Under the pieces are notes generated by a model. It did no database searches. It was not told where the DNA came from and saw only the letters and a list, made by a program, of their open reading frames with translations. Shown here one piece after another: positions 32,716 through 39,640 of a DNA stretch of 64,000 nt (position 1 is the first letter of the stretch; each line of letters starts with the position of its first letter). This stretch comes from Patescibacteria group bacterium (GTDB taxonomy: Bacteria > Patescibacteriota > Patescibacteriia > JBAZBY01), in assembly GCA_041671225.1 (NCBI GenBank), contig JBAZBY010000001.1, positions 109,963-173,962 of the forward strand, given 5' to 3'. Position numbers and translations under genes: made by a program.

Positions 32716-33150
32716 ATGAATACAAACTCCTTGAATATGCCGATGGAAAAAACATTACTTCATGAGAAGGGTTTTCGTGCAACTCCCGCAAAAATAGCTT
32801 TGCTGGATGTATTACAGCGCGCCAAAAAGCCGCTCAGTATCGAAGCTATCCAGGAACTACTCCCTTCCTCCATTAACCAGGCGACGGTCTATCGTACGTT
32901 GCATGATTTTCATGCGCGCGGCATCGTACGGCATGTGGACCTCCATCACGGACATCAGCATTATGAAATTGCCGACGCAAAAGAACACCACCACATCATG
33001 TGCAAAAAATGCGGCAAAGTGAAGGATGTTGCTACCTGCGTCATGCAACAGCTGCAAAAAAACGTGCTGAAACAATCCGGTTTTGCGGAAATTAACGAAC
33101 ACACCATGGAATTCTATGGCGTGTGCGCGGTGTGCGACAAAAAACGCTAA
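32716..33150 (+). CDS. Fur-family transcriptional regulator (likely Zur)
   Basis: 144 aa with a winged helix (ATPAKIALLDVLQRAKKPLSIEAIQ) and metal sites HHGHQHYE, HHHIMCKKCG and CAVCDKK; transcribed divergently from the ZIP transporter. Confidence 0.8.
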   Translation: MNTNSLNMPMEKTLLHEKGFRATPAKIALLDVLQRAKKPLSIEAIQELLPSSINQATVYRTLHDFHARGIVRHVDLHHGHQHYEIADAKEHHHIMCKKCGKVKDVATCVMQQLQKNVLKQSGFAEINEHTMEFYGVCAVCDKKR

Positions 33151-33715: not shown

Positions 33716-35437
33716 TTAAAGAATCACTTCTTTCTCTTTTTTACTGTAACTCGTGATAAAAATATTCTTGTGAAGCTGTTTATCCCTCATAAACTTCTCA
33801 TAGAGTTTGGTCACCTGCGGATTCATATGCGCCGTACGGATGTTCTTTGCCGCATCAATGTCATAGAGTGCAGCGGCGCGCTTCTTTCGTATCTCTTCGC
33901 TCGTGGGCACAGGCTGTCCGCCGCCGCCAATGCATCCGCCAGGGCATGACATCACCTCAAGATAATCGTACGCATGCGGATCTTTCTCAAGCTCGCCAAG
34001 AACAGCAATGGCATTCTTGATGCCATTGACCACGGCAACATTCAGTTTCTTCTTTCCCACGGTCACGGTTGCTTTTTTCACGCCATCGAACCCGCGCACA
34101 GCAGTGAGATCAAGTGAGCCTAAGTCTTTCCCCATCAACGAATGGTACGCCGTTCGTAATGCCGATTCCATGACGCCGCCGGACGCACCATAAATCACTC
34201 CTGCGCCGCTCGGTACGCCAAATGGCGTATCCGCAGGTTGTGGAATGACCTTTGCCAAATCAATATTCTTCTTTCGCAAAAGATGCGCCAGCTCACGGGT
34301 CGTGAAGACATAATCGATCGGTTTGACGCCGTCATTCGAAAGCTCCGGACGCGTGATCTCATATTTCTTTGAAACGCAGGGCATGATGGAGACCACCACG
34401 ATATCCTCCGGTTTGATATTATTGCGCTCAGCCCAGAATGTCTTGATGATCTTCCCAAGAATGATCTGCGGTGAACGGACCGTGGTGAGGTGCGGAATGA
34501 GATCCGGACGATAAAATTCAACGTACTTCACCCACGCCGGACAGCATGACGTGAACATCGGCAAATCCTCATTCTTCTTTATGCGATCGATAAGTTCTTC
34601 TGCCTCTGCAAGCGTTGTAAAATCCGCACCAACACTCACATCAAATACCTTATCAGCGCCAAGCGCTTTGATGGCGCCGACGAGCTTCTCCGTCACCACG
34701 GATCCATGCGGGAGATCAAACTCCTCACCGATACTTGAGCGGATGGAGGGTGCGAACTGAAACACCACCACCTTCTTTTTATCCCTTAAAGGCCTTTCGA
34801 TCTCATTGAATTCTCCAACTCCCTCAAGCGCGCCCACGGGGCAATGAACAATGCACTGCCCGCAATAAATACAATCTTTCTTCGGATCCTTGCTCGGCAC
34901 GACCTGATAAAACGTATCTTTTTCTTCCAGTTCCAAAAATCCTATCCCCTGTTCCTGACAAACTTCAACGCAGTTACGGCAATCAATACACTTCGTGCCA
35001 TCAAAAAGCACCGATGGGCCAAACTGATGGATAGGTTGATTGATCTTGCGATCTTCAAAACGCGCAACAGGCACTTCCATTTTGCGCGCGAGTGAAAGCA
35101 GAGGGCAGCTCGGCTGAACAATGCAGTCCTTGCAATTCTTACTGTGTTGCGAATACAGAAGCTCCAAATTGATCTTCCGCGCACGGAGTACCTTGGGTGA
35201 TGCAGTGAGAATCGCTTTCCCTTCACGGACCGGGCTCGAGCACGCGGGGATGAGTCCCGGAATCCCCTCAACCTCCACAACACACATGCGACAGCTCGCT
35301 TTTACTTTCAAATCCGGATGATAGCAGAGGACTGGAATTTCAATATCATTCTCCCGCGCGACCTCAAGAATCGTCTGACCTTCCTTCGCGGTCACCGGTT
35401 TGCCGTCTATGGTTGTTGTAATGGTTTTCTCCGTCAT
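33716..35437 (-). CDS. hydA: [FeFe]-hydrogenase catalytic subunit HydA (N-terminal 2Fe-2S and 4Fe-4S ferredoxin domains plus H-cluster domain)
   Basis: H-cluster motifs TSCCPAW, MPCVSKKYE and EVMSCPGGCIGGGGQP, with N-terminal Cys clusters (CRMCVVEV, CKDCIVQPSC, CIDCRNCVEVC, CIYCGQCIVHCP). Confidence 0.9.
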   Translation of the reverse strand: MTEKTITTTIDGKPVTAKEGQTILEVARENDIEIPVLCYHPDLKVKASCRMCVVEVEGIPGLIPACSSPVREGKAILTASPKVLRARKINLELLYSQHSKNCKDCIVQPSCPLLSLARKMEVPVARFEDRKINQPIHQFGPSVLFDGTKCIDCRNCVEVCQEQGIGFLELEEKDTFYQVVPSKDPKKDCIYCGQCIVHCPVGALEGVGEFNEIERPLRDKKKVVVFQFAPSIRSSIGEEFDLPHGSVVTEKLVGAIKALGADKVFDVSVGADFTTLAEAEELIDRIKKNEDLPMFTSCCPAWVKYVEFYRPDLIPHLTTVRSPQIILGKIIKTFWAERNNIKPEDIVVVSIMPCVSKKYEITRPELSNDGVKPIDYVFTTRELAHLLRKKNIDLAKVIPQPADTPFGVPSGAGVIYGASGGVMESALRTAYHSLMGKDLGSLDLTAVRGFDGVKKATVTVGKKKLNVAVVNGIKNAIAVLGELEKDPHAYDYLEVMSCPGGCIGGGGQPVPTSEEIRKKRAAALYDIDAAKNIRTAHMNPQVTKLYEKFMRDKQLHKNIFITSYSKKEKEVIL

Positions 35438-36414
35438 ACTTTCACTTTTTCAAGTAAACTCCGGAACGGCAAGGGAATCCCCTGACCGAGCCCGCAAAAA
35501 CTCGCATTTTCCATGGCGAAGAACAAATCATCTGCCGTCTTCATGTCAAAGGCATTCTTGTCGAGCATTTCTTTGAGTCGAAAAACACCTTCGCGGCACG
35601 GGACGCATTTGTCGCAATTTGCCTGCAGGTAAAAATCCACCCATTGCTTCATGAGTGTCGTCGGGGATATTTCATTTTTATCATAGACAAGAATCGCGCC
35701 GCCGCCGGGAACCGGGCGATCCAGTTCTGTGGGGAGGAGAATCTCGCCGCTCGCGCCGCCGCCAGCCTGCACAAAATGGGAAGGTGGGAGTTGTGCGTCC
35801 ATATTCTTCGTCTGCCGCAAGACTTGCGCGATGGTCAAATACTCCGGCAATTCAAACACGCCGGGATTCGGGATAAACCCGCTCACGGAGTACCAACGCG
35901 TTCGGTGGTATTCTCCGCGCGCGATCTTTGCCACGTCATAAAATGTCTCAACATTATTGATGAGCGTCGGGAACCCCCAGATGCCCGCCTGCGCTGGATA
36001 CGGCGGGCGATGCCGCGGTGACGGAAACTTGTTCTCGATCACCTCACAGAGCACGGTTTCTTCTCCGCCTAAATACTTACCGCGCTTGCGCCACAACGTG
36101 ATGGGTTTCTTGCCGATAAGTTTTTCCAGCTTTTCATGAAAACGATCGAAATAATCATGATTCAAATACAAAAACGCTTCGCTGTTTTCAAATGTCTGGA
36201 GGGCAATAATAATGCCTTCTATAACAATGTCCGGATGATGCTCCAAAAGATAACCATCCTTCATCACGCCCGGCTCGCCTTCAGCGCCATTGCAGACGAT
36301 ATATTTTTTTTCTGACTGAATTGCCTTAATGAGCGCCCATTTCTTTGCTGTGGGAAATGATGCTCCGCCCCTGCCGGTCAATTTTGCTTCTTCGAGTTTT
36401 TGTATGATGTCCAC
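35434..36414 (-). CDS. NuoF-like flavoprotein (NADH-binding, FMN, 4Fe-4S) subunit of hydrogenase, short form
   Basis: GRGGASFPTAKKW and CNGAEGEPG motifs, and a C-terminal CDKCVPCREG cluster. It overlaps hydA by 4 nt and is 326 aa long. Confidence 0.75.
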   Translation of the reverse strand: MDIIQKLEEAKLTGRGGASFPTAKKWALIKAIQSEKKYIVCNGAEGEPGVMKDGYLLEHHPDIVIEGIIIALQTFENSEAFLYLNHDYFDRFHEKLEKLIGKKPITLWRKRGKYLGGEETVLCEVIENKFPSPRHRPPYPAQAGIWGFPTLINNVETFYDVAKIARGEYHRTRWYSVSGFIPNPGVFELPEYLTIAQVLRQTKNMDAQLPPSHFVQAGGGASGEILLPTELDRPVPGGGAILVYDKNEISPTTLMKQWVDFYLQANCDKCVPCREGVFRLKEMLDKNAFDMKTADDLFFAMENASFCGLGQGIPLPFRSLLEKVKV

Positions 36415-36579
36415 GCAGTATTTTTGTAACTCTTTTCTCCTTTTAGGATATGCTTTACAACGACAATGTCAACGCTTTCATAAAACCCTTCCCTCTTGAA
36501 CTATCGGGGTGGTATGTTATTCTGTGCAAGCTGAAATAACCCTGTTCCGGGGTAGCTCAGTGGTAGAGCGGTCGGCTGT

Positions 36580-37144
36580 ACATTTCACATCACTTTGGTA
36601 TACACTTTCATGTATGCCAGAGAAACGTCGGTATCGAGATCGCGCTGAATATCTCAAGAAAGCCGTTGCAGAACGCCGTAGAAAGGTGAAAGTGATGGCG
36701 GTTGAGTATGCTGGTGGTCATTGTCAGATATGCGGATATAAGAAGACGGTTGCAGCTCTTGAGTTGCATCACCGTGACAGTAAGAAAAAGGTATTCGCAA
36801 TATCTGGTCAGGGGCTTACTCGTTCTTGGGAACGCATAAAAAAAGAAGCAGACAAATGCGTTCTTCTTTGTGCAAATTGTCATCGCGAGGTTCATGCCGG
36901 CCTAGTGCAGCTTCCATGAGTAATCATGGTCGAAAAACGAGGTGAAATGCGGGAATCCTACGTCGCGAAAGCGATATGGCAATCCGCAGCCAAGCCCTTC
37001 GCAAAAGGCGAGAGGAAGGTTCAGAGACTATCCGCAAGGAGTAGTCCCGTCACGTGACGGGCCGAAGCGCCTCGCACCCATATCCGGCAAAGCCGGATGG
37101 GTGATGATATAGTCCATCCCCTTTAGAAATATTGGGATCAGATG
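36580..37144 (+). mobile_element. Group I intron (566 nt) in the tRNA-Asn anticodon loop, carrying an HNH homing endonuclease ORF
   Basis: The R element GTTCAGAGACTA (37019-37030) and S element GATATAGTCC (37105-37114) are present. The intron follows a U, ends with G, and is inserted between anticodon positions 35 and 36. Confidence 0.7.
36614..36919 (+). CDS. HNH homing endonuclease (intron-encoded)
   Basis: ATG at 36614 inside the intron. The HNH motif is GHCQICGY...ELHHRDSKKK...CANCHREVH; the ORF-track extension upstream of this ATG runs through the tRNA 5' exon and is not coding. Confidence 0.7.
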   Translation: MPEKRRYRDRAEYLKKAVAERRRKVKVMAVEYAGGHCQICGYKKTVAALELHHRDSKKKVFAISGQGLTRSWERIKKEADKCVLLCANCHREVHAGLVQLP

Positions 37145-37189
37145 TAACCGATTGGTCGCCGGTTCGAATCCGGCCCCCGGAGCCATGAG

Positions 37190-37218
37190 AGAAATCGTCG
37201 CCAGCGCGGCGATTTTTC
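37190..37218 (+). terminator. Rho-independent terminator after tRNA-Asn
   Basis: Hairpin ATCGTCGC-CAGC-GCGGCGAT followed by TTTTT. Confidence 0.6.
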
Positions 37219-38165: not shown

Positions 38166-39029
38166 CTACTGCTTCCACTCACGGAGCTGCTTGTCAAAAT
38201 CGGTGAGCGAGGCAAGATAGCGGATATTCTTCGTACCACGCCACGTTCGCTCCCTCACGACCTTACTCCAACCGCCACCGCCATACACCAATTTCGCATG
38301 GTGCTTTTTTGTGTACGTGGCAATAGCATTCAGGTATTCAAGTGAACCGACTTCGGTGAATATTTTTGAAAGACCTACCAAGGAAGGTTGGAGTTTTTGT
38401 GCTGCTTTAATAACCTCAACAGTCGAAATATTGATACCGAGAATATGCGTGGTCCAACCATGTAACTTCATAACGAGAGCGATCATGTGCAAGGGGATCT
38501 CATGCTGCTCACCAATTACACAAGCAAGGACCGCCACATTCTTCTTATCTAGCTTCACTTCTGGAATAAGCTGTCCAATACGAAAAAGCTGCAGACGAAT
38601 CAAGAAGCTCATGCGATGCTCTTCGTAAATGGAAATATGACCTTTACGCCATTCATCGCCAATGTTTTTGAGCGTTGGTGCAATGATGTGATCAAGAATA
38701 ACCGGCACAGGAATATTCTGGAGATACAGCGCCTCAAGGACGCGCTCCGCAGCGGTAATATCATTACTGGCAAGTGCACGATAGTATTCCTTCCATTCAT
38801 CTTTCGTTGGTTCCGGTTTCTTCTTCAAGCGACGAAGGACATACGATTTCTTCGCATTTTTTGGGTAGCGCTTCACAAAGAGTGCAAGTTCTTCTTGGGA
38901 AATCCTCCGATGTCCGCCAGCGGTAATTTGGGCTTTCAAAAAGCCTTTATCCACCCAACGCTTAATAGTTGAGACATTTACCTCAAAAAGCTTCGCGATT
39001 TCGGGAGGACTGAAATGCACGTTTTGCAT
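38166..39029 (-). CDS. MerR-family transcriptional regulator with C-terminal cobalamin (B12)-binding domain (CarH/LitR-like)
   Basis: N-terminal MerR HTH ([26 protein letters not shown]), then a B12-binding-like Rossmann segment containing the ExHxxP variant [20 protein letters not shown]. Confidence 0.6.
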
Positions 39030-39103: not shown

Positions 39104-39640
39104 ATGAAGACAGGGCTCATTCTCATCATCGCAGTCATTGTCGTCGGTGGCGGCGCGTTCCTCCTCGGAGGCGGATCAAACGACGATAGAGAAAATAGTA
39201 ATGAAACATTAACTCAACAAGAAACAACCATGTCAAAAAATATCGTCGAAACGGCAATTGATGCCGGTTCATTCACCACACTCGTCTCAGCTGTCCAAGC
39301 TGCTGATCTCGTAGAAACGTTGTCTGGTGAAGGTCCCTTCACCGTATTCGCTCCAACGGACGAGGCATTTGCCAAACTCCCAAGCGGTACACTTGAAAGC
39401 CTTCTCGAAAATAAAGAAGGACTCGCGAAGATTCTCACCTACCATGTCGTTGCAGGAAAAGTGATGTCAGCGGATGTTGCAGCACTCTCAGAAGCAACAA
39501 CCGTTCAAGGTGGCACACTCACATTTGATACCAACAATGGCGTCAAAGTAAACAATGCAATGGTCACTCAGGCTGACATCGAAACAAATAATGGCGTCAT
39601 CCATGTGATCGACACCGTCCTCATCCCGGAAGAAAATTAA
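39104..39640 (+). CDS. Fasciclin (FAS1) domain secreted protein
   Basis: Signal peptide plus FAS1 motifs ([36 protein letters not shown]). Confidence 0.85.

What the first reader, a model, noticed from the sequence alone, without database searches (positions are those of the whole stretch)
36546..37185. tRNA-Asn(GUU) gene split by a group I intron that encodes an HNH homing endonuclease
tRNA-like homology stops after anticodon positions 32-35 (CUGU) at 36579 and resumes at 37145 with UAA and the rest of the tRNA; joined, they form a canonical 74-nt tRNA-Asn(GUU). The 566-nt insert has the group I R and S elements and an HNH ORF (see features). Group I introns are known in bacterial tRNA-Leu(UAA), Ile, Arg and fMet genes. 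A tRNA-Asn host with a 35/36 insertion site and an HNH cargo would be unusual, and it means this genome carries self-splicing mobile introns.
Basis: partly seen in the sequence, partly recalled or inferred. Interest (0 to 1): 0.62.

Follow-up and report, generated by a model that had tools for sequence, protein, structure and literature searches.

The report
Self-splicing intron in tRNA-Asn gene
The only tRNA-Asn gene in this window, from a Patescibacteria genome, is interrupted in its anticodon by a self-splicing group I intron that carries an HNH homing-endonuclease gene, and this exact arrangement was already published for this phylum in 2020 and 2025-26, so it is a real but ordinary new example.

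Summary
Exons 36546-36579 and 37145-37185 join into a canonical tRNA-Asn(GUU) with CCA. The insert 36580-37144 is a group I intron (Rfam 83.3 bits, threshold 50). It has a U·G pair at the 5' splice site, a terminal G, and helices P1-P9 supported by covariation in 60 relatives. An intact 101-aa HNH gene (36614-36919) sits in the P1 loop. Two figures need correcting: the intron is 565 nt, not 566, and the tRNA is 75 nt, not 74.

The arrangement is not new. Williams (bioRxiv 2020) catalogued this tRNA-Asn intron class. Nakagawa et al. (mSystems 2026) showed that tRNA-Asn 35/36 introns are the commonest tRNA introns in Patescibacteria. They demonstrated precise self-splicing in vitro for a relative and reported four with HNH genes. 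This genome is not in their table, so it is a new member of a known kind.

- The HNH family occurs in at least 550 species genomes, including Blastocatellia and Omnitrophota.
- The ribozyme's guide sequence lies inside the last codons of the ORF (Gln-Leu-Pro).
- Relatives of the HNH gene also occur free-standing, directly beside tRNA-Asn genes. This is seen in Patescibacteria and inside phage tRNA arrays (45 of 61 non-redundant phage loci).
- This pattern points to a tRNA-Asn-targeting endonuclease that moved into the intron.

The parts
36546..36579 (+). tRNA-Asn 5' exon (positions 1-35), ending C32 U33 G34 U35
   Evidence: ARAGORN on the joined exons and with introns allowed. The exons are 93% identical to those of the in-vitro-spliced GCA_016700035.1 tRNA-Asn.
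36580..37144 (+). Group I intron, 565 nt, subgroup IA-like (has P7.1 and P7.2); terminal G (omega-G) at 37144
   Evidence: Rfam RF00028 at 83.3 bits. The helix model is 83.5% paired across 60 relatives, against 34-44% for slid controls. The MFE fold recovers P2-P9 with z=-4.46.
36574..36581 (+). P1 5' strand: exon GGCUGU plus intron AC. The U36579·G36907 wobble marks the 5' splice site.
   Evidence: Read from the sequence. CUGU:GCAG is invariant. The intron +1: IGS -1 pair is kept in 64 of 67 relatives, as G-C, A-U, C-G or U·G.
36905..36912 (+). P1 3' strand / internal guide sequence (GU-GCAGCU), lying inside the last codons of the HNH ORF (Val-Gln-Leu)
   Evidence: The CAG of the guide is read in frame as Gln inside the ORF in 55 of 59 intron-borne relatives.
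36614..36919 (+). HNH endonuclease gene (101 aa plus stop) in the P1 loop. It has CxxC...CxxC zinc ligands (C37, C40, C86, C89), His52-His53, Asn88 and His90.
   Evidence: Pfam HNH. More than 880 homologues with invariant motif residues. dN/dS median 0.083. AlphaFold pLDDT 88.5, with nearest folds all HNH nucleases.
36593..36622 (+). Conserved element just upstream of and across the start codon. It contains a TGG-TATACA box (36596-36604) that looks like an extended -10 promoter element, 9 nt before the ATG. It can also form a 12-bp hairpin (36593-36604 with 36611-36622) that buries the AUG.
   Evidence: A GGTATA box is present in 45 of 81 loci, usually 9-10 nt from the ATG. A looser -10-like pattern (TATACT/TATAAT and variants, 4-18 nt before the ATG) is met by 40 of 62 intron-borne and 9 of 11 free-standing genes. 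Hairpin energy is -14.8 kcal/mol, z=-5.9. Covariation is inconclusive because the core is invariant.
36914..36929 (+). P2 hairpin CCAUGA-GUAA-UCAUGG. The ORF stop codon (36917-36919) lies in its 5' strand.
   Evidence: 98.6% paired, and all 6 pairs show compensatory changes.
36938..37074 (+). P3 (36938-44 with 37068-74), which encloses P4 (36948-53/36983-88), P5/P5a, P6/P6a, the P7 5' strand (37026-30), P7.1 (37031-40) and P7.2 (37046-61)
   Evidence: P3 is 90% paired, P4 97-100%, P5 96%, P6 94%.
37075..37137 (+). P8 (37075-37103), J8/7, the P7 3' strand (37110-14, forming a pseudoknot with 37026-30) and P9 (37117-37137)
   Evidence: P7 is 100% paired and almost invariant; the outer pairs of P8 and the inner pairs of P9 covary.
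37145..37185 (+). tRNA-Asn 3' exon (positions 36-76): U36 A37 A38, discriminator G at 37182, encoded CCA at 37183-37185
37197..37213 (+). Terminator-like hairpin followed by a T run, 12 nt after the tRNA 3' end

Best explanation
This is the tRNA-Asn(GUU) gene of a Patescibacteria bacterium, interrupted between anticodon nucleotides U35 and U36 by a subgroup-IA-type group I intron. In the precursor, anticodon-loop nucleotides C32-U35 (plus G31 and G30 here) pair with the guide sequence GCAGCU at 36907-36912 to form P1, with the U35·G wobble at the splice site. Free guanosine attacks there. The terminal G37144 then takes the G-binding site and the exons are joined, giving a normal 75-nt tRNA-Asn. 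The anticodon stem (27-31/39-43) presumably holds the exons together, because no P10 pairing is visible. The 5' half of the intron is an expanded P1 loop that carries an intact 101-aa HNH endonuclease gene. The last codons of that gene double as the guide sequence and the 5' strand of P2. The endonuclease most likely cuts intron-less tRNA-Asn genes and so drives homing of itself and the intron. What is shown: the anatomy, the comparative support for the fold, and purifying selection on the ORF. What is inferred by homology to an experimentally spliced relative: splicing. What is inferred from family, conservation and gene neighbourhood: endonuclease activity and its target.
For: A canonical tRNA-Asn forms only after removing 36580-37144. 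Rfam Intron_gpI scores 83.3 bits. The P2-P9 model is 83.5% paired in 60 relatives, against at most 44% for slid controls, with a covariation score of 0.427 against at most 0.103. The MFE fold recovers the same helices, z=-4.46. All 69 split relatives (68 loci plus the window) end exon 1 in CTGT and end the intron in G. The P1 extension pair covaries. The ribozyme is 71% identical, and the exons 93% identical, to the GCA_016700035.1 tRNA-Asn intron, which splices precisely at 35/36 in vitro and is blocked by an omega-G to C change. The HNH motif residues are invariant in 31 aligned homologues. dN/dS has a median of 0.083 over 49 pairs. In 73 of 73 resolvable cases (72 of the 80 genome loci plus the window) the HNH gene lies inside or beside a tRNA-Asn gene. 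The same holds for 45 of 61 non-redundant phage loci, p=4.5e-18. No other tRNA-Asn is present in the window. PMC13011429 reports that intron-bearing and intron-less copies of the same tRNA rarely coexist in one genome.
Against: There is no RNA evidence or splicing assay for this particular sequence. Only 64 kb of a contig of about 1.03 Mb was visible, so a second, intact tRNA-Asn elsewhere cannot be excluded. No cleavage assay exists for any member of this HNH family, and 101 aa is small for a sequence-specific homing enzyme. No P10 pairing was found.
Confidence: 0.9

Rival explanations
1. The intron splices, but the HNH protein is no longer, or never was, a homing endonuclease for the tRNA-Asn gene. 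It could instead be a splicing helper, a nicking enzyme with another target, or a domesticated protein.
For: No member has been assayed. The protein is only 101 aa, with one long N-terminal helix and the HNH core. The nearest solved sequences are the HNH domain of a group II intron maturase (E=2e-4) and McrA. Structural matches are weak, E>=0.078. Three genomes keep the gene next to an intron-less, apparently uncut tRNA-Asn (L007, L011, L074).
Against: The ORF is under strong purifying selection and its catalytic and zinc residues are invariant. The gene stays physically tied to tRNA-Asn genes in Patescibacteria, Blastocatellia, Omnitrophota and many phages, whether or not an intron is present. 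That is the signature of a site-specific homing enzyme. ORF-less relatives of the intron splice on their own in vitro, so no maturase is needed.
Confidence: 0.12
2. The gene is a dead, disrupted tRNA pseudogene. The insert no longer splices and a second intact tRNA-Asn elsewhere does the work.
For: Only part of the genome was visible. No expression data exist.
Against: Every core helix, the U·G pair and omega-G are intact, and the sequence fits a model that covaries across 60 relatives. The exons form a perfect cloverleaf. A terminator-like hairpin follows the gene. In complete Patescibacteria genomes the interrupted copy is typically the only tRNA-Asn gene.
Confidence: 0.03
3. The host is really tRNA-Thr(UGU) with the intron two bases further 5' (33/34). 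ARAGORN and tFind often call relatives this way.
For: ARAGORN called many of the related loci Thr(tgt) i(33/34). The same ambiguity is described in PMC13011429. GGCU + UGUAACC would also give a 7-nt loop.
Against: In this window the shifted intron would end in A (…CAGA), not G. ARAGORN itself calls Asn here. The exons are 93% identical to a tRNA-Asn whose spliced product was sequenced. U1-A72 and discriminator G73 are as in E. coli tRNA-Asn (own knowledge).
Confidence: 0.02

Closest known systems
Patescibacteria tRNA-Asn(GUU) group I introns at 35/36, four of them with HNH (PF01844) genes (Nakagawa et al., mSystems 2026, PMC13011429; preprint 10.1101/2025.07.03.662931)
   Same: Same phylum, host tRNA, insertion site and intron subgroup features (P7.1/P7.2). 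The ORF has the same position at the 5' end of the intron and ends in ...gtgcagcttcc (Table S3). The ribozyme is 71-76% identical and the exons 85-93% identical.
   Different: This genome is not among their 95 complete genomes, since its exon-intron junction is absent from Table S3. They did not describe the guide-in-ORF overlap, the -10-like box, free-standing copies, non-Patescibacteria hosts or the phage relatives.
Class 'Asn.4Ug' in the tFind survey of intron-split bacterial tRNA genes (Williams, bioRxiv 10.1101/2020.01.27.920355)
   Same: The intron lies after the 4th anticodon-loop nucleotide (U) of tRNA-Asn and ends in G.
   Different: That work is a catalogue only, with no analysis of cargo genes.
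Cyanobacterial tRNA-fMet intron encoding a PD-(D/E)XK homing endonuclease, and tRNA-Arg(CCU) introns encoding LAGLIDADG enzymes (as summarised in PMC13011429)
   Same: A bacterial tRNA anticodon-loop group I intron that carries a homing endonuclease gene.
   Different: Different tRNA, insertion site (33/34, 36/37), endonuclease family and phylum.
Cyanobacterial/plastid tRNA-Leu(UAA) intron and the Azoarcus tRNA-Ile intron (subgroup IC3; own knowledge)
   Same: A self-splicing group I intron in the anticodon loop, with P1 built from anticodon-loop nucleotides and similar J6/7-P7 and J8/7 consensus sequences.
   Different: Those are IC3 introns without P7.1/P7.2, have no ORF, and insert at 34/35 or 36/37.
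Free-standing homing endonucleases in phage tRNA clusters, e.g. T4 SegB (PMC2330249), and the 'free-standing endonuclease plus ORF-less intron' model (Zeng/Bonocora/Shub 2009, from memory)
   Same: Relatives of this HNH gene sit as free-standing genes directly beside tRNA-Asn genes in phage tRNA arrays and in some Patescibacteria.
   Different: SegB is a GIY-YIG enzyme. In the window the gene is inside the intron, not free-standing.

Membership tests
Group I intron (Rfam RF00028) | Match to the covariance model above the curated threshold | tested here: met
   83.3 bits against a gathering score of 50, E=1e-19, full model 1-253
Group I intron (Rfam RF00028) | P1 helix formed by the 5' exon and an internal guide sequence, with a U·G wobble at the 5' splice site | tested here: met
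   GGCUGU|AC (36574-81) pairs with GU-GCAGCU (36905-12), with U36579·G36907. The adjacent pair covaries in 64 of 67 relatives.
Group I intron (Rfam RF00028) | Terminal guanosine (omega-G) before the 3' splice site | tested here: met
   G37144. All 69 split relatives (68 loci plus the window) also end in G.
Group I intron (Rfam RF00028) | Conserved core P3-P9 including the P3/P7 pseudoknot, supported by covariation | tested here: met
   83.5% of cells paired against 34-44% for slid controls. 54 of 68 pairs show double changes. P7 is 100% paired. The MFE fold agrees.
Group I intron (Rfam RF00028) | Self-splicing with guanosine and Mg2+ | not testable with these tools
   Shown in vitro only for a relative with a 71% identical ribozyme at the same site (PMC13011429)
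Subgroup IA | Extra helices P7.1/P7.2 between P7 and P3' | tested here: met
   Two hairpins at 37031-40 (GCAA loop) and 37046-61, between the P7 5' strand and the P3 3' strand. The published relatives were classified IA with subgroup models. I did not run those models.
tRNA-Asn(GUU) | Cloverleaf with anticodon GUU after intron removal | tested here: met
   ARAGORN calls tRNA-Asn(gtt), 75 nt, all four stems intact
tRNA-Asn(GUU) | Mature spliced tRNA present and charged with Asn | not testable with these tools
   No RNA data
HNH endonuclease (Pfam PF01844) | Profile match above the curated cut-off | tested here: met
   26.3 bits against 21.4. PHROG 2255 and 3106 'HNH endonuclease', E=2e-29 and 3e-26.
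HNH endonuclease (Pfam PF01844) | Catalytic His/Asn/His and CxxC...CxxC zinc ligands on a beta-beta-alpha fold | tested here: met
   C37, C40, H52, H53, C86, N88, C89 and H90 are invariant in 31 homologues. The model has strand-strand-helix elements at pLDDT 88.5. Top fold hits are Cap5, T4 endonuclease VII, Cas9 HNH and Gme HNH, but with weak scores.
Homing endonuclease (functional class) | Site-specific cleavage of the intron-less allele, and gene conversion | not testable with these tools
   Indirect only: purifying selection, constant linkage to tRNA-Asn genes with or without the intron, and patchy cross-phylum distribution

The most novel reading that the evidence does not exclude
The HNH gene, with its own -10-like box, is an independently mobile tRNA-Asn-targeting homing cassette that is older and wider than the intron. 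It sits free-standing beside tRNA-Asn genes in many phage tRNA arrays and in some Patescibacteria. It has repeatedly settled in the P1 loop of the tRNA-Asn intron, where its last codons were recruited as the ribozyme's guide sequence. The intron-plus-gene unit has since jumped into Blastocatellia, Omnitrophota and Elusimicrobia. If so, this family preserves every stage of how a mobile group I intron is assembled: free-standing beside an intron-less target, free-standing beside an ORF-less intron, and inside the intron. Phages are the likely vehicles.
Probability: 0.45. Interest if true: 0.5.

Novelty: new member of a known kind. Interest (0 to 1): 0.27.

Why it matters
For this locus the practical point is annotation. 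Standard tRNA finders miss the gene, so the genome would look as if it lacked tRNA-Asn, and a gene caller can run an ORF through the exon. Both problems are already described in the 2026 paper. The wider value lies in the by-products. This one HNH clade is tied to tRNA-Asn genes in phages, in Patescibacteria and in three other phyla, in free-standing and intron-borne forms, with RNA and protein constraints superimposed at the guide sequence. That makes it a convenient natural system for asking how endonuclease genes and group I introns come together and move between phyla.

Tried and rejected
- The look-up of encoding contigs on the exact HNH protein returned nothing, so the rest of the source genome could not be searched for a second tRNA-Asn. 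The listing of cluster members gave only NCBI accessions MFA6511639.1 and MFA6943410.1, 'Patescibacteria group bacterium', longest contig 1,028,488 bp.
- Table S6 of PMC13011429 (the HEG list) lies beyond the stored part of the supplement. I used Table S3 instead.
- My first reading of the core as IC3-like (similar to Azoarcus) was dropped once two hairpins between P7 and P3' were seen.
- I looked for P10 pairing between the 3' exon UAACC and the bases 5' of the guide, and found none (by eye).
- The guide does not covary with exon position 31: C at IGS+4 is fixed and pairs in only 41 of 67 relatives. The exon part of P1 is therefore essentially the four loop bases.
- The start-codon hairpin is thermodynamically strong, but its 6-bp core never varies and its covariation score (0.082) is no better than one slid control (0.093). 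A hairpin and a plain -10 box therefore cannot be separated.
- NCBIfam gave no hit. The Foldseek PDB matches were all HNH folds but none reached E<=0.001.
- My first automatic guide-sequence and ORF-start callers made errors and were replaced. L001 and L057 still have wrong ORF starts in the tree, so their '100%' neighbours should be ignored.

Full report
**Observation.** The region reads as the first stage described. Exon 1 (36546-36579) ends ...GGCUGU and exon 2 (37145-37185) begins UAACCG. Joined, they give a 75-nt tRNA-Asn(GUU) with all four stems intact and an encoded CCA. ARAGORN run with introns allowed finds the split gene directly, with a 565-nt intron after position 35. Default ARAGORN and the Rfam tRNA model both miss it. 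Rfam Intron_gpI matches 36826-37136 at 83.3 bits, against a threshold of 50. The ORF 36614-36919 encodes a 101-aa protein that passes Pfam HNH. Two small corrections apply: the intron is 565 nt, not 566, and the tRNA is 75 nt, not 74.

**Anatomy of the ribozyme.**
- The Rfam alignment forces P1 and P2 into the ORF, so I derived the 5' part by hand.
- P1 is formed by exon GGCUGU plus intron AC (36574-36581) pairing with GU-GCAGCU (36905-36912). The U36579·G36907 wobble lies at the splice site.
- P2 is CCAUGA-GUAA-UCAUGG (36914-36929).
- P3 (36938-44 with 37068-74) encloses P4, P5/P5a, P6/P6a, the 5' strand of P7 (37026-30) and two extra hairpins, P7.1 and P7.2.
- P8, the 3' strand of P7 (37110-14) and P9 follow. 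The intron ends in G37144.
- The two hairpins between P7 and P3' are the mark of subgroup IA, which is how the published relatives were classified.
- An MFE fold of 36905-37144 recovers P2-P9 on its own, at -88.3 kcal/mol with z=-4.46.

**Comparative test of the fold.** A scan of one genome per species with an alignment of HNH homologues found at least 550 genomes that encode a relative, and I kept the best 80 loci. I aligned the ribozyme halves of 59 of these loci with the window, giving 60 sequences, and counted pairs for my structure.
- 83.5% of cells are paired, against 34-44% when the partners are slid by 1-3 columns.
- The covariation score is 0.427, against at most 0.103 for the slid controls.
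- 54 of 68 pairs show changes on both sides.
- P2 is 98.6% paired, P3 90%, P4 97-100%, P6 94%, and P7 100% and nearly invariant.

For P1, the pairing CUGU:GCAG never varies. The next pair (intron +1 with the base before the guide) is kept in 64 of 67 relatives as G-C, A-U, C-G or U·G. The guide does not track exon position 31, which pairs in only 41 of 67. The exon part of P1 is therefore essentially the four loop bases C32-U35. I saw no P10 pairing, so the anticodon stem presumably aligns the exons.

**The ORF.**
- The protein is identical to an NCBI entry from a Patescibacteria MAG. More than 880 homologues at 60-74% identity were found, almost all labelled Patescibacteria/CPR.
- The zinc ligands and HNH residues (C37, C40, H52, H53, C86, N88, C89, H90) are invariant in 31 aligned homologues.
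- dN/dS over 49 moderately diverged pairs has a median of 0.083.
- The AlphaFold model (pLDDT 88.5) shows a long N-terminal helix followed by a strand-strand-helix core.
- The nearest folds are all HNH nucleases (Cap5, T4 endonuclease VII, Cas9 HNH, Gme HNH), but the scores are weak.
- By sequence, the nearest solved chain is the HNH domain of a group II intron maturase, E=2e-4.

**What is already known.** A literature search found the arrangement already published.
- Williams (bioRxiv 2020) listed tRNA-Asn introns after the fourth loop base, class 'Asn.4Ug'.
- Nakagawa et al. (mSystems 2026, PMC13011429) found 22 intron-containing tRNA genes in 95 complete Patescibacteria genomes. Fifteen of them are tRNA-Asn(GUU) at 35/36.
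- They showed precise self-splicing in vitro for one tRNA-Asn and one tRNA-Asp intron, abolished by changing omega-G to C.
- They classed the introns as IA and reported that four tRNA-Asn introns longer than 500 bp encode HNH (PF01844) endonucleases.
- Their Table S3 shows the same layout, with the ORF at the 5' end of the intron ending in ...gtgcagcttcc.
- The window's junction sequence is not in that table, so this is a further member.
- Its ribozyme is 71% identical, and its exons 93% identical, to the experimentally spliced GCA_016700035.1 gene.

**Where the HNH relatives sit in genomes.** I classified the 80 loci plus the window.
- In 62 the HNH gene lies inside a tRNA-Asn 35/36 intron.
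- In 8 it is free-standing beside a tRNA-Asn gene that has an ORF-less intron of 192-260 nt.
- In 3 it lies beside an intron-less tRNA-Asn gene. One of these, L007, keeps a remnant of the 5' exon and the intron start upstream of the ORF.
- 8 loci are cut off by contig ends.
- Every split gene ends exon 1 in CTGT and ends the intron in G.
- Some hosts are not Patescibacteria. They include Blastocatellia/Pyrinomonadaceae (one on a 2.9-Mb contig), Omnitrophota and Elusimicrobia, each with its own lineage-specific exons.
- In a rough NJ tree each of these groups forms one clade, while the free-standing forms appear in at least six separate places.

**Overlap of RNA and protein constraints.** In 55 of 59 intron-borne genes the CAG of the guide is read in frame as a Gln codon inside the ORF. 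A C-terminal Gln-Leu(-Pro/Ser) motif (or Gln-Pro-Pro/Ser) is present in 57 of 60 intron-borne proteins and in 0 of 11 free-standing ones. The conserved 'QLP' tail is therefore imposed by the ribozyme, not by the enzyme.

**Expression signal.** A TGG-TATAC(T/A) or TATAAT box lies 6-10 nt before the ATG.
- A strict GGTATA box is present in 45 of 81 loci.
- A looser -10-like pattern, searched 4-18 nt before the ATG, is met by 40 of 62 intron-borne and 9 of 11 free-standing genes.
- It looks like an extended -10 element that would give a nearly leaderless mRNA.
- The same bases can pair with GUAUGCCAGAG across the start codon. In the window this hairpin has an energy of -14.8 kcal/mol, z=-5.9.
- The core of the hairpin never varies, so covariation cannot decide between the two readings.
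- Both readings together would resemble what I recall of phage T4 I-TevI, where an internal promoter frees a start site that is buried in read-through transcripts. This is inference only.

**Phage relatives.**
- At least 570 IMG/VR contigs encode relatives at 47-68% identity.
- In 63 of the best 80 viral loci the gene lies directly beside an intron-less tRNA-Asn(GTT) gene inside a phage tRNA array. In many of these loci the ORF stop overlaps the 5' end of the tRNA by 9 nt.
- After collapsing at 90% identity, 45 of 61 representatives have tRNA-Asn as an immediate neighbour. tRNA-Asn makes up 49 of 92 neighbouring tRNAs but only 53 of 364 tRNAs in those loci (p=4.5e-18).
- Cultured examples confirm the pattern. 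Cronobacter phage CR3 has tRNA-Asn followed by HNH. Bacillus phage Bastille has tRNA-Asn, HNH, tRNA-Asn. Pseudomonas phage PAK_P4 differs, with tRNA-Arg, HNH, tRNA-Lys.
- I found no paper describing this link. The known precedent is the GIY-YIG enzyme SegB in the T4 tRNA cluster (PMC2330249).

**Verdict.** The arrangement is a published, phylum-typical feature of Patescibacteria, so the finding itself is ordinary. The side observations extend the published picture and may merit a separate look. These are the breadth of the HNH family, the non-Patescibacteria hosts, the free-standing copies, the guide sequence inside the ORF, and the association with tRNA-Asn in phages.

Noticed in passing
L081-L160 (IMG/VR viral contigs); L161 (Cronobacter phage CR3 145846-146292); L162 (Bacillus phage Bastille 5857-6685): Relatives of the HNH gene (47-68% identical) lie directly beside an intron-less tRNA-Asn(GTT) gene inside phage tRNA arrays. 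This holds in 63 of 80 loci, or 45 of 61 after de-duplication (p=4.5e-18). The ORF stop often overlaps the tRNA 5' end by 9 nt. In a few loci a tRNA-Asn gene lies on both sides (L089-L091, L109, Bastille).
   Followed up: partly
L006, L026, L028, L037, L055 (HNH upstream); L040, L050 (downstream); L043 (opposite strand); L007, L011, L074 (intron-less tRNA-Asn): In 11 Patescibacteria genomes the HNH gene is free-standing next to the tRNA-Asn gene. That gene then carries an ORF-less intron of 192-260 nt, or no intron at all. These forms fall in at least six places in a rough tree. L040, L050 and L074 have near-identical HNH genes but differ in whether the intron is present.
   Followed up: partly
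L007:1440-1940: A Kerfeldbacteria locus keeps a remnant of the tRNA-Asn 5' exon, the intron start and the HNH gene (the closest relative of the window's gene in the tree, but with a different C-terminus). The ribozyme has been lost. An intact intron-less tRNA-Asn with a different anticodon stem follows 54 nt downstream.
   Followed up: partly
L042, L051, L053, L056, L068, L071 (and L018); L004, L017, L019 (and L033); L047: HNH-bearing tRNA-Asn 35/36 introns also occur outside Patescibacteria: in Blastocatellia/Pyrinomonadaceae (one on a 2.9-Mb contig), Omnitrophota and Elusimicrobia. Each group has its own exon sequences and forms one clade in the HNH tree. The 2026 paper found HEG-bearing 35/36 IA introns only in Patescibacteria, but it looked at complete genomes only.
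   Followed up: partly
window 36905-36919: The ribozyme's guide sequence and the 5' strand of P2 are the last codons of the HNH ORF (Val-Gln-Leu-Pro-stop). The Gln-Leu(-Pro/Ser) tail is present in 57 of 60 intron-borne proteins and 0 of 11 free-standing ones, so it is an RNA constraint read through as protein.
   Followed up: yes
window 36593-36622: A conserved TGG-TATACA box lies 9 nt before the ATG. It may be an internal extended -10 promoter giving a leaderless mRNA. It can also form a 12-bp hairpin that hides the start codon. It is absent from the Blastocatellia and Omnitrophota versions. Covariation is inconclusive.
   Followed up: partly
window 36509-36919: A mechanical ORF of 136 aa (GTG start) runs in frame from upstream, through the tRNA 5' exon, into the HNH gene. 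Several homologues in the database are 110-134 aa long and may be such over-extended calls.
   Followed up: no
window 33716-36414 (- strand): Immediately upstream, on the other strand, lie an [FeFe]-hydrogenase large subunit with ferredoxin-type domains (573 aa) and a NuoF-like FMN/4Fe-4S subunit (326 aa). This is a hydrogenase module in a small-genome bacterium.
   Followed up: partly
window 32716-33150 (+), 38166-39029 (-), 39104-39640 (+): Other neighbours are a Fur-family regulator, a MerR-type HTH fused to B12-binding domains (CarH/LitR-like light or B12 sensor architecture), and a secreted fasciclin-domain protein.
   Followed up: no
L081:1434-2053: One contig that IMG/VR classifies as viral (22 kb) carries the full intron-plus-HNH tRNA-Asn gene (68% identical protein). 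It is either a Patescibacteria fragment misfiled as viral or a phage or prophage carrying the split gene.
   Followed up: no
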